Below are positions 47,306 to 64,000 of a stretch of DNA of 64,000 nucleotides, one piece after another. The stretch lies in assembly GCF_009914755.1 (NCBI RefSeq), contig NC_060946.1; one strand, 5' to 3'. The number at the start of each line of letters is the position of its first letter. Position 1 is the first letter of the stretch. The DNA is from the human T2T-CHM13v2.0 reference genome, Homo sapiens. A program made the position numbers and the translations under genes. The notes beneath the pieces are model-generated. The model searched no databases and was not told the origin of the DNA. It was given only the letters and a program-made list of their open reading frames with translations.

Positions 47306-47415
47306 ATTATTCAATCAATGGATAAAACCACACAGATATCAAAAGAATGGGAGTATAACTATTTCTGACAATGCCTTACACTAACTGGCTTTAGTTTTAA
47401 AATGGTCAAATACAT

Positions 47416-47714
47416 TCTTTTTTCCTTTTGAGACAGGGTCTCACTCTGTCACCCAGGCTGGAGTGCAATGGTGTGATCATAGCTCATTGCAGCCTCAACT
47501 TCCCAGGTTCAAGTGATCCTCCCACCTAAGCCTCCCAAGTAGCTAGGACTGCAGGCATGCACCACTACACCTGGCTAATTTATTTTTATTTTTGTAGAGA
47601 TGGGGGTCTTGCTAATGCCGCCCAGGTTGGTCTCGAACTCCTGGCCTCAAGTGATCCTCCTGCCTCGGCCTCGCAAAGTGCTGAAATTACAGGTGTGAGC
47701 CACCATGCCTGGCC
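47416..47714 (-). mobile_element. Alu (AluJ-like); donor of the copy at 49552-49840
   Basis: Full-length reverse-complement consensus. Confidence 0.93.
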
Positions 47715-49388
47715 TAATTTCTTCAATGTTCCAATTGTCTTGAGATCTGCAGTCTCCCCTTTGCTTCCAGTTTAGCCTGAGCATGATTTGAGGGTCACTT
47801 GCCTCCAGATGCAAGTGTCCGGCAGGCACCCCCTACCCTGTGGCACAGTCCAGTGGGGACAGCTCTTCTGGGCTTGGGCCTGCCCCTCTTGGCCAGGTGT
47901 GGTGGTGAAGGGAGGTGGAGACAAGCCACATTACCTGGGCCCTTCCCTGGATGGGACACAATGCTCTGTGCTTGCCCCCACACCAGCTAGACGTTAAGGA
48001 GGCTCCCTTGGGGTCTGAGTCCCAGGATCACCATGCACCAAGTCATATGACTTTGGGAAAGCCACCTGCTCCCAGGCCTCAGTTTGCTCGTCTGTGAAAT
48101 GGAAGGGATGCTGGCATTTCCATCAGCAGTGTTGCAGGGATAGGATAGAAGAAGATAAGCATTTGGGGCACTTAGCAGAGCACATGGTAGTCACAGTCAT
48201 CAGTATTGTTTCCTTTAATTGCAACTCCTAAAATCAGGGATCCAAGGGACCTCAAAGACACACCCAACGTCTTTGGCCTCAAACTGGGAACGGTTGTGTT
48301 ACCCCTTTCTCTCACTCTCGTGGGCCCCCTGGCTCATCTCCATGCTGGGGCATTCTCTGGGCATCGCGAAGGGCACGACATTACTCCCTGGCATTTGCAA
48401 AGTTGTTTGGCATGGGTGCGGCATTTCACTGTGTACAGGCCCCTTCCTCTGCCCAGTCCATACCTACCCCTCACGTACCTCTAGCGCTTTACAGTTTATA
48501 TGTCATGCAGCATCTGCTGGGCTTAGGATGCCGACCCATGGTTTACAGAGCACACGGAGGCCCGGAGAGCCACAGGGAGCCCGGGGAGCCATGCGGGCCC
48601 CAGGCTTTGCCTCTGGGCGGCCCCACGGGCGGTGGTGCGATTCTGGCTCGGCTCCGGTCCCCTCGGGCTCTACCTTCTTGTGCTCCCTCTGTGTCCTGCG
48701 GAAGATGAAGTCTTCCTGAACGAGGCTCGGGAATGCTGCCACTGTTCAATGAGCTAATGGTGAAATTGGAAACTCAAGGGCTGGAGGCAGAGAAAAAAAA
48801 AAAAAAGACAAGCTTTGATTCACAGGCAGGAGAATGAGTGAATGGGGAAAATTCATCCTGCGGTCATCAGAGGAAATGCCTGGGTGGCACGTCCCTCGTC
48901 CTTCGAGCAAAGTCTCTCCTGGAGAGGGGAAGGTCATGCAGGTGGCAAGCTCAGTGGCCGGCGGTGGCTGAAGCTGGGACAGGGAGGCGAAGGAGTGGGC
49001 TTGGGGCAGACAGACCTGGGCTCCAATCCCAGCGCTGCTGCAATAGCCACCGTGCCACCCTCACCTGGGAAGCAGGGTGATGGTGGGTGTTACCTCAGGG
49101 GTCCCCTAAGCAGAGTAAGTTAGCTGGTAGAAGATGGGCACAAAATAGATGCTCACAAAATAAAAACCCCTGGAAGCTTCTCTAGTAGGCCAAAGTGGAG
49201 ACAATCTACTGTCTCTTTAGAAGAGGGGTTAAAATCTGTCAGCTGCCTCCACTGGTCCTGAGTGAGTGATTGAGCCATTTCGACAGCCTCGGGTCTGATT
49301 TCTGGTGTTGGGGTAGTCAGCTGGAGTCATGACAAGGTTTCTAGAGGTAATCACTCACATTACATTTAGAATGAGCCGCTGGGCCCAC

Positions 49389-50016
49389 GAGATGAGCCAC
49401 TGGGCCCAAGAGAGAGAGGGAAAGGGTAACACAACGATTTCCAGTTTGAGGTCAAACACCCTGGGTATGTCTTTGACGTCCCTTGGATCCCTGATTTTAG
49501 GAGTTGCAATTAAGGGAAACAATACTGGTGACTGTGATTACCATGTGCTCCGCTTTGGTTTTAAAATGGTCGGATACATTCTTTTTTCCTTTTGAGACAG
49601 GGTCTCACTCTGTCACCCAGGCTGGAGTGCAATGGTGTGATCATAGCTCACTGCAGCCTCAACCTCCCAGGCTCAAGCGATCCTCCCACCTCAGCCTCCC
49701 AAGTAGCCAGGACTACAGGCATGCGCCACTATACCTGGCTAATTTATTTTTATTTTTGTAGAGATGGGGGTCTTGCTAATGCTGCCCAGGTTGGTCTCGA
49801 ACTCCTGGCTTCAAGTGATCCTCCTGCCTCGGCCTCACAATGCTTTATCTCCTTCTATCCTATCCCTGCAACACTGCTGACAGAAATGCCAGCATCCCTT
49901 CCATTTGACAGGTGAGCAAACTGAGGCCTGGGAGCAGTTGGCTTTCCCAAGGTCACATGGCTTAAGGCACAGTGATCCCGGGACTCAGACCCGAAGGGAG
50001 CTCCCTTAGCCTCTAG
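49389..50016. repeat. Composite local duplication: revcomp(48178-48340) + direct(47388-47676) + revcomp(47987-48165)
   Basis: Manual alignment of each piece; see findings. Confidence 0.93.
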
Positions 50017-61700: not shown

Positions 61701-61746
61701 TTTGCCTTCTGGCCACAGCTATTCACGATGATTCATACCCACCCCT

Positions 61747-62130
61747 ATTATGAGCTGAACTCTGTCTCCCCAAAAATTCATATGTTGAAGCCCTAATCCC
61801 AGTACCTTAGAATGTGACTGTATTTGAAGACAGGTTCATTAAAGAGGTGATTAAATGACAATGAGGTCATTATCATGGGCCCTAATCCAATATGACTATT
61901 GTCCTTATTAAAAAAGACTGGGACACAGACACACACAGAAGCAAGACTGTGGGAAGACACAGGGAGGAAGCAGCCAACTCTAAGCCAGAGAGAGACCTCA
62001 GAAGAAACCAACCCTGCTGACACCTTGATCTTGGACTTCCAGCCTCCAGAACAGCAAGAGAATAAATTCCTGTTGGTTTAGCCACCCAGGCTGTAGAATT
62101 TTGCTATGGCAGTCCTAGCAGAGGAATACA
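61747..62130 (+). mobile_element. MaLR solo LTR (MLT1A/B-like) nested in an older MLT1 element
   Basis: TATTATGAGCTGAACTCTGTCTCCCCAAAAATTCATATGTTGAAGCCCTAA ... GCAGTCCTAGCAGAGGAATACA. Confidence 0.85.
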
Positions 62131-63275
62131 TGCCCCACATGCAAAACCTATTCATTCCTTTCCCTTGAGATCTGTATGGCAGCCGCTCAAAGGCCAGGAG
62201 CCAGCCAGGTGCAGGTGGGAATGCATCTCCTCAGGTGGCCTTTCTTGGGTACAGCTCCTTGAGTGCCACTTCATTCAATGGGAAGACCTGTGAGCTAAAG
62301 AAATGAGTTATCTGCCCTCCCCCTCCTACTCCACAATGGTGGTTCAGGCATAGGAAAACTATTAACACCATAGGCACCCCCAAACTAAAAGCGGAGGAGC
62401 AGGAGACACACAGGAGTCACTGGTCCAGAGCAATTCTGAAATCCATCCTGCTCAAGTCCCATCCTTCCTTCAGGACTTGATGAAATCCCTGCTGGCTCCC
62501 TGTGCAGAGAAGCAGCAGGACCCATCAGCAAGAGTGCAGGCTTTGAGGCCAAATAGTCCTGTGTTCAAATCCTGCTCTGTCAATAAGAGAAGCTAAAAAA
62601 TGAACTATTATGGCACATATTGCCAGTTCCTGGAATAGTCCTCAGTCCAACTGCCTGGGAAAGATTCCCCACATGGCTCCTGACTCTGGCCTCTTGGTTC
62701 TTTCCTCTGGACCACCCTTGGGTTTCTGTAAGAAATGTCCAGTGTTTGCAGCTGAGCAGTTTTTCTTAACTTGCTTTCTGCCCATGAAGATTTTATGGTC
62801 CAAAATCTCTCTTTTCATTTGGTGCCCTCTCTAACCCTTTAATTCAAAGCCAAAACAGGCCCTTTAAAAATTGTGTAGGTTTCTTATCTTATGAGTCAAT
62901 TTATAATCCCTTCCATTAGACAAAAGCCATATCCACAAATCTCTTTTTCACCTTGGGCTCTTGGCAAGGCTGCCTTTATGATTCTTAGAAGCTCTATTAT
63001 TTAACAGAAAGGGTCTTCAACATATGCTGTTAAGATCCTTAGAAGGCCTTTGTCTGCTTGAAAAGGTCTATGAGGTACCACCTTAAATCTTTCTAAGGTC
63101 TTAATAAAAGGCTTTATAGTTATGTCCTTGGATTCATCTTTAAACTATTTTCCTATTAATGACCCTGGCTTTAATCTTTGCCTGGAAGTCATTTCTTATT
63201 TTGGGAAGGAAGAAAGTTTTCAAGCCAAGGAAGTCTTGGTTCCTTTATATTTAATAGTTCATTTTTTAGCTTCTC
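62131..63275 (-). mobile_element. MLT1 internal-region fragment (interrupted at 62447-62610)
   Basis: MaLR-int-like motifs (GAAGACCTGTGAGCTAAAG..AGTTATCTGCCC, TCACTGGTCCAGAGCAATTCTGAAATCCA, GCAGCTGAGCAGTTTT). Confidence 0.6.
62447..62610. repeat. Inverted copy of 63252-63415
   Basis: 164 bp, 3 mismatches, no indels by manual alignment. Confidence 0.97.
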
Positions 63276-64000
63276 TTATTGACAGAGCAGGATTTGAACA
63301 CAGGACTATTTGGCCTCAAAGCCTGCACTCTTGCTGATGGGTCCTGTTGCTTCTCTGCACATGGAGCCAGCAGTGATTTCATCAAGTCCTGAAGGAAGGA
63401 TGGGACTTGAGCAGGTAGAAGAAGGGAGGGCATGGCAGGCAGGGGTGCCACATGGATGAAGACACAGAAATGGTAGGAAATGCAAGGTGCATTAGGAGAC
63501 AGAGGCAGCCAAGTGCACGATCCCTTTCCATCCCTCTCTCCCTTGTTTTGTCCTTCACACATTCGGTTCCTACTTCCATTCCCTTATAACCACTGTTTAT
63601 GTCGTTTTGTAGCACAAGCCCTCTGATATCATCCACACTCCACTCCACCCTTCAATCGGTTGGATCACATGGGTTCCATCTTCCCTGAGAATGCCCTTCC
63701 TCATCTTGTCCACCTGGAGCATGACTTACTTATCTGTCAAGGCCCAAGATGACTGTCACCTCCTCTGTGACATTCCATATGAGTTGGGATATTCTAATGG
63801 TTATAACAACAATGCCAAATGCCTCAGTGTCTTAACACAAGAGTTTTAGTTCTCACTCAGTTGAATGAGAGTTGGCTGTGGTGAGGCAGGTGGGCTTTGC
63901 TCCCCAGTTACATGGGGGCTCATGTTCCTTCTGTCCAGTGGCCCCACCATCCTGTAGCACAGAAGTTTGCAAACAATGACCTGTTTTTGTAAATAAAGTT

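What the first reader, a model, noticed from the sequence alone, without database searches (positions are those of the whole stretch)
47388..63415. Cluster of local templated insertions of different ages: candidate recurrent template-switching hotspot
Seen: within 16 kb there are four separate copies of nearby sequence. They are the 49389-50016 backbone (inverted, ~87%), 49552-49840 (direct, ~95%), 58225-58521 (inverted, ~92%) and 62447-62610 (inverted, ~98%), plus a micro-inversion at 60918-60966. Donors lie 0.6-2.2 kb away. Copies span junctions between unrelated repeats or unique DNA and lack new poly-A tails, so they are not independent retrotranspositions. I saw no comparable inverted copy in the first 47 kb. 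Established: FoSTeS/MMBIR and polymerase-theta end joining generate templated insertions with microhomology. Inference: the spread of identities implies this locus repeatedly acquired such patches during primate evolution. If transcribed, each donor/copy pair could form long non-Alu dsRNA stems. Identities are hand counts.
Basis: partly seen in the sequence, partly recalled or inferred. Interest (0 to 1): 0.8.

Follow-up and report, generated by a model that had tools for sequence, protein, structure and literature searches.

The report
Cluster of local copy-and-paste repair scars
Four short stretches of human DNA were copied from 0.6 to 1.9 kb away and pasted nearby, three of them backwards, at different times in primate history; this is a known kind of break-repair scar, and only its crowding into 16 kb is unusual.

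Summary
A self-comparison of the 64-kb window gives 5 matches of at least 86% identity and 80 bp, all between 47.3 and 63.5 kb. They make three inverted local duplications of 354, about 300 and 164 bp, plus one direct 289-bp patch nested inside the first copy. Each arm has only its local partner in the whole assembly.

I determined which member is the copy in all four cases:
- Event 1 has a 16-nt flanking repeat.
- Event 2 sits inside an Alu.
- Event 3 has an empty site in a paralogous repeat copy.
- The patch interrupts the first copy.

None has a poly-A tail. Junctions show small target deletions, short microhomology and filler.

Divergences are 11.4, 7.9, 5.2 and 1.8%, and they differ significantly (p=5e-4).

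All of this matches the "repair-mediated duplications" of Pace et al. 2009 (PMC2671141): 824 human cases, mean 162 bp, donors about 1.2 kb away. The kind is therefore known.

The hotspot claim stays open. At the published density a triplet within 16 kb is expected 0.1 times per genome. My own background sample (0 events in 248 kb) allows densities at which hundreds would occur. No primate orthologues could be examined.

The parts
47388..47676 (+). Donor of the nested patch: about 17-27 nt of flank plus the poly-T-side part of a full-length Alu. The Alu spans 47405-47723 in NCBI's masking and 47415-47723 as a multi-copy stretch.
   Evidence: (D5), 3 and 13: 289 nt, 15 mismatches, no indel against 49552-49840. 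The Alu continues to 47723 only here.
47987..48340 (+). Donor of event 1: an old interspersed repeat copy (47986-48225) plus 115 nt of low-copy flank.
   Evidence: The in-session repeat profile places the repeat at 47986-48225. The name MIR is recalled and comes from no call.
49345..49360 (.). Left copy of the target-site-duplication-like repeat flanking the event 1 acceptor.
   Evidence: 15 of 16 bases match 50015-50030; 0 of 2000 shuffles reach the score.
49371..49413 (.). 21-bp tandem duplication (2.0 copies, 90% matches) at the inner junction of the event 1 acceptor. It acts as filler or a junction complexity.
   Evidence: TRF row 49371-49413; alignment.
49389..49554 (-). Event 1 acceptor, inner half: inverted copy of 48174-48340.
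   Evidence: (I6), 3, 12: 88.6% identity.
49552..49840 (+). Nested patch (event 1b): direct copy of 47388-47676. It interrupts the event 1 acceptor and replaces about 10-12 nt of it.
   Evidence: The patch is the only gap between the two halves of the backbone alignment. Junctions share 3-4 nt with both templates, as read.
49839..50016 (-). Event 1 acceptor, outer half: inverted copy of 47987-48163.
   Evidence: (I2), 3, 12: 87.6% identity.
50015..50030 (.). Right copy of the target-site-duplication-like repeat of event 1.
56241..56530 (+). Donor of event 2. It may extend to about 56200 if a 23-nt gap is accepted.
58223..58541 (-). Event 2 acceptor: inverted copy of 56241-56530 (58225-58521) plus about 15-20 nt of filler or diverged donor. 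It is inserted inside an Alu (58048-58222 continues at 58542-58560).
   Evidence: alignment; 58542-58560 matches the terminal Alu segment, 17 of 19 bases with Alu 59120-59138, and 0 of 1000 shuffles reach the score; no flanking repeat.
60917..60966 (.). Micro-feature: a 12-nt word present three times (2 direct, 1 inverted) within 50 nt.
62447..62610 (-). Event 3 acceptor: inverted copy of 63252-63415, inserted into an old interspersed repeat copy.
   Evidence: A paralogous repeat copy on contig C23 runs from the left flank straight to the right flank (28061171 and 28061173 are adjacent) with about 4 nt in place of the 164-nt arm.
63252..63415 (+). Event 3 donor, in its native context.
   Evidence: a paralogous repeat copy on contig C2 aligns across 63252 and at least 28 nt into the arm.

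Best explanation
The region holds four separate local capture duplications, of the kind published as 'repair-mediated duplications'. In each case a chromosome break, or a stalled nascent strand, at the acceptor site primed DNA synthesis on a template 0.6-1.9 kb away on the same chromosome. A copy of 164-354 bp was made. The new strand was then rejoined at the break through a few bases of microhomology. This left small target deletions, some filler, and in one case a 16-nt duplication of the target.

Three copies landed inverted and one direct. The direct one fell inside an earlier copy.

The events happened at different times over roughly the last 50 million years. Their proximity may be chance or may reflect a locally raised rate; the data here do not decide this.

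Shown here: the copies, their uniqueness in the genome, which member is donor and which acceptor, the junction anatomy, and the unequal divergence.

Inferred: the repair pathway, the ages, and the independence of the events.
For: 1. Real and locally unique. 5 of 5 high-identity self-matches of the window lie in this region, and each arm finds only its partner in the 3.1-Gb assembly.

2. Direction of copying.
- Event 2 splits an Alu, whose terminal 19 nt resume at 58542-58560.
- The event 3 acceptor is absent from a paralogous repeat copy that is otherwise collinear. The event 3 donor is continuous with its flank in another paralog.
- The patch interrupts the event 1 copy relative to its donor.
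- The event 1 copy is bracketed by a 15-of-16 direct repeat (0 of 2000 shuffles).

3. Not retrotransposition. No poly-A or poly-T sits at any insert end (sequence), and 3 of 4 acceptors have no flanking repeat.

4. Fit to the published class. Pace et al. 2009 (PMC2671141; Results read in full) report:
- 824 proximal duplications, mean 162 bp, maximum 619 bp, with a distance peak near 1.2 kb;
- 0 of 39 inspected with a poly-A tail;
- junctions with microhomology of 2-9 nt, deletions of 1-15 nt, filler of 1-68 nt and target-site duplications of 4-21 nt;
- 20 chimeric acceptors.

5. Unequal ages. Mismatches are 39/343, 23/290, 15/289 and 3/164, with chi-square p=5e-4 (p=0.004 without CpG sites). 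With the rate used in that paper these give 52, 36, 24 and 8 million years.
Against: - No orthologous empty site from another primate was seen, so independence and ages rest on divergence alone. Gene conversion between arms could lower some divergences.
- For event 1 the direction rests only on the flanking repeat.
- The paralog used for event 3 is a related repeat copy, not the ancestral site. The size of the target deletion (about 4 nt) is therefore approximate.
- Strand-annealing repair and replicative template switching predict the same scars. They cannot be told apart from sequence.
- The microhomologies are short (1-4 nt) and were read by eye. They were not tested against chance.
- My by-eye idea that the event 3 arm holds the same old repeat family as event 1 was not supported by the in-session profile.
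Confidence: 0.8

Rival explanations
1. A true recurrent hotspot. Some lasting property of this 16-kb stretch raised the rate of break-and-capture events over tens of millions of years. Candidates are fork stalling, germline breakage, or the first inverted repeat itself provoking later breaks. This adds to the best explanation; it does not replace it.
For: - 4 events lie in 16 kb against 0 in the other 48 kb of the window, 0 in 40 kb downstream and 0 in 16 random 10-kb stretches. The conditional probability that 3 of 3 fall in the span is 2e-4.
- At the published density of 0.62 per Mb, only 0.095 such triplets are expected per genome.
- Pace et al. state they saw no trend for the 824 duplications to cluster (Discussion).
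- One event hit the arm of an earlier one.
- The events differ in age.
Against: - The region was picked because it looked clustered, so the conditional p-value is post hoc.
- The published density is called a minimal estimate by its authors.
- My sample only bounds the density below 12 per Mb. At 3.1 per Mb 11.5 triplets are expected per genome, and at 12.1 per Mb 624 are expected.
- 10-kb stretches lose pairs that straddle their ends, and I did not correct for this.
- No local feature sets the stretch apart. The 13-mer tied to meiotic hotspots has 2 of its 28 window matches here (the motif is recalled). Microsatellites are as frequent in the first 47 kb.
Confidence: 0.35
2. One complex rearrangement made all copies at once (several template switches in one replication accident). 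Later gene conversion or uneven mutation then spread the identities.
For: - Multi-switch events and chimeric acceptors are known. Pace et al. report 20 chimeric acceptors, 5 of them with both donors local.
- The backbone plus patch could be read as one three-switch event.
- Pair 2 does not differ significantly from either the backbone or the patch (p=0.18 and 0.24).
Against: - Divergence is heterogeneous (p=5e-4 overall; backbone against pair 3 p=1e-4; backbone against patch p=0.006). It stays so without CpG sites (p=0.004).
- The three inverted pairs have separate centres 8.5 and 5.5 kb apart, with undisturbed DNA between them.
- The patch returns to within about 12 nt of where the backbone copy left off. 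A later break explains that more simply.
- Arms of 164 bp are short substrates for conversion (recalled, not tested).
Confidence: 0.07
3. Event 1 is an RNA-mediated copy. A read-through transcript started in the old SINE-like repeat at 47986, ran into its flank, was reverse-transcribed and was inserted 1 kb away with a target-site duplication.
For: - The copy starts within about 1-10 nt of the repeat's first profile position (profile position 2 = 47986; copy boundary 47987).
- It carries 115 nt of downstream flank.
- It is flanked by a 16-nt repeat.
Against: - There is no A-rich tail at the expected end and no run of T at the donor's 3' boundary.
- The flanking repeat does not begin in an A-rich site.
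- The start of my profile was set by my own seed, so the coincidence is soft.
- Target-site duplications of 4-21 nt occur in 6 of 39 inspected proximal repair duplications without any poly-A (Table 1).
Confidence: 0.06
4. The arms are ends of transposons with long terminal inverted repeats, or chance pairs of the same repeat family, or assembly errors.
For: The arms include pieces of old interspersed repeats.
Against: - Each arm has a single partner in the genome.
- Homology runs past repeat borders into low-copy DNA.
- Identity to the partner (88-98%) far exceeds that to any other family member (at most 84%).
- The copies differ from their donors by substitutions, which a collapsed or mis-joined assembly would not produce.
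Confidence: 0.02

Closest known systems
[quoted passage not shown]
   Same: - Insert sizes of 164-354 bp against a published mean of 162 and maximum of 619 bp.
- Donors 0.6-1.9 kb away on the same chromosome, against a published peak near 1.2 kb.
- No poly-A tail.
- Junctions with microhomology, small deletions, filler and an occasional target-site duplication.
- Acceptors inside repeats.
- A spread of ages through primate history.
- Either orientation occurs; the paper describes an exon copied in the opposite orientation.
   Different: - Four events lie within 16 kb, one nested in another. The paper reports no tendency to cluster.
- The nested patch is mostly Alu, a class the paper's pipeline excluded by design.
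- Whether events 2 and 3 are among the paper's 824 could not be checked, because its Table S1 was not readable here.
'Doublets', short paired local duplications in mammalian genomes (Thomas et al. 2004). Known here only through its citation and description in PMC2671141; the paper itself was not seen.
   Same: Short non-transposon copies sit close to their source. Small direct examples (23-48 nt) also turned up in my background loci.
   Different: As described in the citing paper, doublets are under 100 bp and nearly identical. The copies here are 164-354 bp and up to 11% diverged. Three of the four are inverted.
Short template-switch mutations (Loytynoja and Goldman 2017, Genome Res, PMC5453318; Walker et al. 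2021, PMC7954356). Only the search listing and the start of each abstract were seen.
   Same: Replication-linked copying from the opposite strand nearby gives inverted patches. This is the best available match for the 12-nt triple at 60917-60966.
   Different: Those events are described as short-range clusters of substitutions and small indels. The large copies here are hundreds of bp from donors 0.6-1.9 kb away.
FoSTeS/MMBIR and fold-back or origin-dependent inverted duplications (Hastings et al. 2009, PMC2621351; Hermetz et al. 2014, PMC3907307; PMC10766183). Only the search listing and the start of each abstract were seen.
   Same: Microhomology-primed template switching yields inverted copies and multi-part junctions.
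   Different: Those models were built for kilobase-to-megabase copy-number changes, often with the inverted copy abutting its source. Here small inserts land at a distance and the donor is left intact.

Membership tests
Repair-mediated duplication (Pace et al. 2009) | Inserted sequence of at least 50 bp found at only one other place in the genome | tested here: met
   each of the three arm queries finds itself and one local partner. Only 6 weak partial hits (78-84%) exist, all for a 60-80-nt piece of arm 2. The Alu-rich patch cannot be tested this way. Its identity to its donor (94.8%) exceeds every other Alu pair in the window (all below 86%).
Repair-mediated duplication (Pace et al. 2009) | Donor on the same chromosome within 5 kb, and more than 50 bp away | tested here: met
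   gaps of 642, 1049/1676, 1695 and 1876 nt.
Repair-mediated duplication (Pace et al. 2009) | No poly-A or poly-T tract of 5 or more at an insert end | tested here: met
   Read directly for all 4 inserts. The T-run inside the patch is the copied Alu's own tail, present in the donor too.
Repair-mediated duplication (Pace et al. 2009) | Junction scars: microhomology, target deletion, filler, sometimes a target-site duplication | tested here: met
   - Target-site duplication, 15 of 16 bases, at event 1.
- About 10-12 nt lost at the patch.
- About 4 nt lost at event 3, judged against a paralog.
- At most about 8 nt lost at event 2, plus 15-20 nt of filler.
- 21-bp tandem filler at event 1.
- Microhomologies of 1-4 nt were read by eye and not tested against chance.
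Repair-mediated duplication (Pace et al. 2009) | Acceptor interrupts a repeat whose two parts are collinear with the family | tested here: met
   Event 2, event 3 and the patch relative to its backbone donor. Not shown for event 1.
Repair-mediated duplication (Pace et al. 2009) | Orthologous empty site in a related species | not testable with these tools
   No primate genome is held. Only the window's own assembly could be searched.
L1-mediated retrotransposition (target-primed reverse transcription) | Poly-A tail plus target-site duplication at an A-rich nick site | tested here: not met
   No tail at any of the 4 inserts. A flanking repeat occurs at only 1 of 4, and it does not start in an A-rich site. 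The definition of the nick site is recalled.
DNA transposon with terminal inverted repeats | Arms belong to a multi-copy family | tested here: not met
   one partner each in 3.1 Gb.
Polymerase-theta end joining with templated insertion | Short inserts copied from the immediate flanks of the break | tested here: not met
   Inserts are 164-354 bp from templates 0.6-1.9 kb away. The usual size and range of theta-made inserts are recalled and not taken from a paper read here. The pathway could still explain the 12-nt micro-feature.
Segmental duplication | At least 1 kb at 90% identity or more | tested here: not met
   The longest copy is 354 bp. The definition is as quoted in PMC2671141.

The most novel reading that the evidence does not exclude
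This 16-kb intron stretch is a long-lived hotspot for break-and-capture duplication. It has fired at least four times over about 50 million years. It may be self-reinforcing, because each inverted copy creates a new fragile or fork-stalling structure; the second event hit the arm of the first. If so, such duplications are not uniformly scattered as published. Local inverted repeats that can form long double-stranded RNA in a lncRNA intron would then arise in bursts at particular loci.
Probability: 0.3. Interest if true: 0.6.

Novelty: new member of a known kind. Interest (0 to 1): 0.35.

Why it matters
Taken singly, the copies are ordinary examples of a repair scar that has been catalogued in the hundreds.

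What could matter is the crowding. The published survey saw no clustering. A locus that has taken four such hits of different ages would therefore point to a local cause of germline breakage or fork stalling. Such a cause can now be looked for with complete primate assemblies.

The three inverted pairs also lie in one intron of the lncRNA CACNG2-DT. If transcribed they would form stems of 164-350 bp. For pair 3 the predicted fold is -483 kcal/mol against -265 for shuffles. That makes them candidate non-Alu substrates for RNA editing or double-stranded-RNA sensing. None of this was tested.

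Tried and rejected
- Larger background sample. I drew 176 random 10-kb stretches plus 4 flanking ones. Only the first 20 could be fetched.
- Old SINE in the event 3 arm. 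I thought by eye that the arm continued as an old SINE into the spacer, which would have made the left arm the donor. A pairwise alignment, nhmmer with the arm and an in-session repeat profile (best E=1.3) gave no support. The paralog test showed the opposite direction of copying.
- Global alignment of the event 2 site to intact Alus failed to bridge the insert. Local alignment of the terminal piece worked.
- Meiotic-hotspot 13-mer: 28 matches in the window, 18 of them in the minisatellite at 2.1-3.6 kb and only 2 in 47-64 kb. This gives no support for a motif-driven hotspot.
- Rfam on 45-64 kb: 0 matches.
- Literature on densities of inverted duplicates: PMC5398296 (passages seen) gives no count for arms over 100 bp with kilobase spacers.
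- Literature on this locus or on clustering of such duplications. One search found 10 papers, of which only PMC2671141 is on the subject. One search found 3 papers on CACNG2-DT, none on structure by title. One search found nothing. I found no description of this cluster.

Full report
**What is there**

The window is human, chr22 of T2T-CHM13, as the hub's annotation states. It lies downstream of CACNG2 inside an intron of the lncRNA CACNG2-DT.

A blastn of the whole window against itself gave 5 matches of at least 86% identity and 80 bp. All lie between 47,388 and 63,415. The repeat finder returned the same pairs. They are:
- 47388-47676 / 49552-49840, direct, 94.8%
- 47987-48163 / 49839-50016 and 48174-48340 / 49389-49554, inverted, 87.6 and 88.6%
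- 56241-56530 / 58225-58521, inverted, 89.9% with a 7-nt indel
- 62447-62610 / 63252-63415, inverted, 98.2%

Among matches whose arms are low-copy within the window, no other local pair exists. Bases 1-47,000 hold none.

**The arms are not a repeat family**

I searched the complete 3.1-Gb assembly with each arm. Each query found itself and its local partner. The only other hits were 6 weak ones (78-84%) to a 60-80-nt piece of arm 2. The tool warns that very common words are skipped, so old repeat fragments inside the arms are not excluded.

An in-session profile built by iterated nhmmer from the 47975-48225 stretch found 56 copies in 264 kb. It places an old interspersed repeat at 47986-48225. 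I call it MIR from memory only. Homology between donor and copy runs 115 nt past that repeat, to 48340. The pair is therefore a copy of a locus and not two members of one family.

**Which member is the copy**

- *Event 1.* The 49.4-50.0 kb copy is bracketed by a direct repeat, 49345-49360 and 50015-50030, with 15 of 16 bases matching. 0 of 2000 shuffles reach that score. The donor's own flanks show nothing comparable (83 of 2000). A 21-bp tandem duplication sits at the inner junction.
- *Nested patch.* Aligning the donor to the reverse complement of the copy leaves one large gap. The gap is filled by 49552-49840 and replaces about 10-12 nt of the backbone. The patch equals 47388-47676, which is some 17-27 nt of flank plus part of an Alu. 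That Alu is complete only at the donor, where it runs on to 47723. At both junctions the two templates share 3-4 nt, as read.
- *Event 2.* The Alu ending at 58222 resumes at 58542-58560, with 17 of 19 bases matching another Alu's terminal segment and 0 of 1000 shuffles reaching the score. The roughly 320-nt insert therefore sits inside an Alu. At most about 8 nt were lost, 15-20 nt are unassigned, and there is no flanking repeat.
- *Event 3.* I searched the assembly with each arm plus 200 nt on either side. Many copies of an old repeat match up to the left edge of 62447, and others match from the right edge of 62610. One copy on contig C23 has both parts adjacent, at 28061171 and 28061173. The alignment shows about 4 nt in place of the 164-nt arm. 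A copy on contig C2 aligns across 63252 and at least 28 nt into the right arm. So 62447-62610 is the insert and 63252-63415 is the native donor. This reversed my own by-eye guess, which three checks had already failed to support.

**Not retrotransposition**

No insert ends in an A- or T-run of its own. Three of the four acceptors have no flanking repeat.

**Ages**

Substitutions are 39/343 for the backbone, 23/290 for event 2, 15/289 for the patch and 3/164 for event 3. Homogeneity is rejected (chi-square p=5e-4; p=0.004 without CpG-context sites). Pairwise tests give:
- backbone against event 3, p=1e-4
- backbone against patch, p=0.006
- event 2 against backbone, p=0.18
- event 2 against patch, p=0.24

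At least two age classes are therefore shown, and four are suggested.

With the rate used by Pace et al. (pair divergence = 2.2e-9 per year), the point ages are 52, 36, 24 and 8 million years, with wide intervals. Gene conversion between arms could mimic youth, and I could not exclude it.

**What it is**

Pace, Sen, Batzer and Feschotte (2009, PMC2671141) describe this class. I read the abstract, all of the Results and the first part of the Discussion. Their findings are:
- 824 human duplications with the donor within 5 kb;
- mean length 162 bp and maximum 619 bp;
- a distance peak near 1.2 kb;
- none of 39 inspected with a poly-A tail;
- junctions with microhomology, deletion, filler or a 4-21-nt target-site duplication;
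- 20 chimeric acceptors;
- a spread of ages through primate evolution.

They attribute the duplications to synthesis-dependent strand annealing at double-strand breaks.

All tested defining features are met here. The orthologous empty site could not be tested. Polymerase-theta joining fits the sizes and distances poorly, though that judgement rests on recalled typical values.

**Is it a hotspot?**

For a background I fetched 40 kb downstream of the window and 16 random 10-kb stretches drawn with a fixed seed.

Under the same criteria the 20 stretches gave 4 local pairs. Three were Alu pairs with 96-121 other hits in the pool. The fourth was a low-copy direct pair in a GC-rich stretch of contig C13. 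None was a low-copy inverted pair.

A more sensitive pass found only short low-copy local matches elsewhere, mostly direct. Outside the C13 stretch these were 23-63 nt at 85-100% identity or 80-170 nt at about 70%.

Zero events in 248 kb bounds the density below 12 per Mb. I did not correct for edge losses in the 10-kb pieces.

The number of three-event clusters within 16 kb expected per genome is 0.095 at the published 0.62 per Mb, 11.5 at five times that density, and 624 at my upper bound. The authors call their count minimal and also report no clustering.

The region was chosen because it looked clustered. I therefore put a locally raised rate at about one in three.

Nothing local singles the stretch out:
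- 2 of the 28 matches to the recalled hotspot 13-mer fall here.
- Microsatellites are as common upstream.
- Rfam finds nothing.

**Smaller points**

- The 12-nt word at 60917-60966 occurs three times (2 direct, 1 inverted), against 0.06 expected. It looks like a short template-switch product but needs an outgroup.
- If the intron is transcribed, pair 3 folds into a 164-bp stem of -483 kcal/mol against -265 for shuffles, z=-24. Whether that matters is untested.

**Verdict**

The interpretation as templated local insertions of different ages is supported. The kind is already known. The hotspot is unproven but worth a genome-wide census.

Noticed in passing
window 2140-3596: A 1.4-kb C/A-rich minisatellite with periods of 9, 15, 24, 27 and 42 nt. 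It carries 18 of the window's 28 matches to the 13-mer linked (from memory) to meiotic recombination hotspots, inside the CACNG2 intron. GC skew is -0.69 in 2001-4000.
   Followed up: no
window 57958-57965: Two Alus in the same orientation are fused head to tail, with the end of the first and the tail side of the second missing. By eye they share about 3 nt at the joint. This is possibly another small deletion scar, right next to the event 2 acceptor.
   Followed up: no
window 50819-51225: A 400-bp TG/CA-rich complex tandem repeat (period 103 x 3.1 copies, and others) lies 0.8 kb from the event 1 acceptor.
   Followed up: no
window 26447-26545 and 25919-26007: A (CT)49 run and a (GGC)n run sit at the shared CACNG2 / CACNG2-DT promoter region.
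   Followed up: no
window 60657-60736: A (CCTGC)16 pentanucleotide repeat lies 180 nt upstream of the 12-nt triple word.
   Followed up: no
L022 8954-9169 / 9785-10000 (contig C13, about 7.8 Mb): The only low-copy local pair of 100 bp or more in the background sample is direct, 94.9% over 216 nt, in a stretch with 71% GC.
   Followed up: no
window 34683-34705 / 37573-37595; L020 423-459 / 2691-2727; L025 2867-2904 / 5820-5857; L026 2115-2162 / 6242-6289: Short (23-48 nt), nearly identical, direct low-copy matches lie 2-4 kb apart. They fit the 'doublets' mentioned in PMC2671141.
   Followed up: partly
window 47393-47673 against 49557-49837: Of the 15 donor/patch differences, 9 have A or T in the donor and G or C in the copy. 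Several are at sites that are CpG in the copy. This suggests much of the decay was on the donor side.
   Followed up: no
window 48735-49234: The RefSeq-annotated enhancer lies in the 1-kb spacer between the event 1 donor and acceptor. It is thus flanked by an inverted repeat (hub annotation).
   Followed up: no
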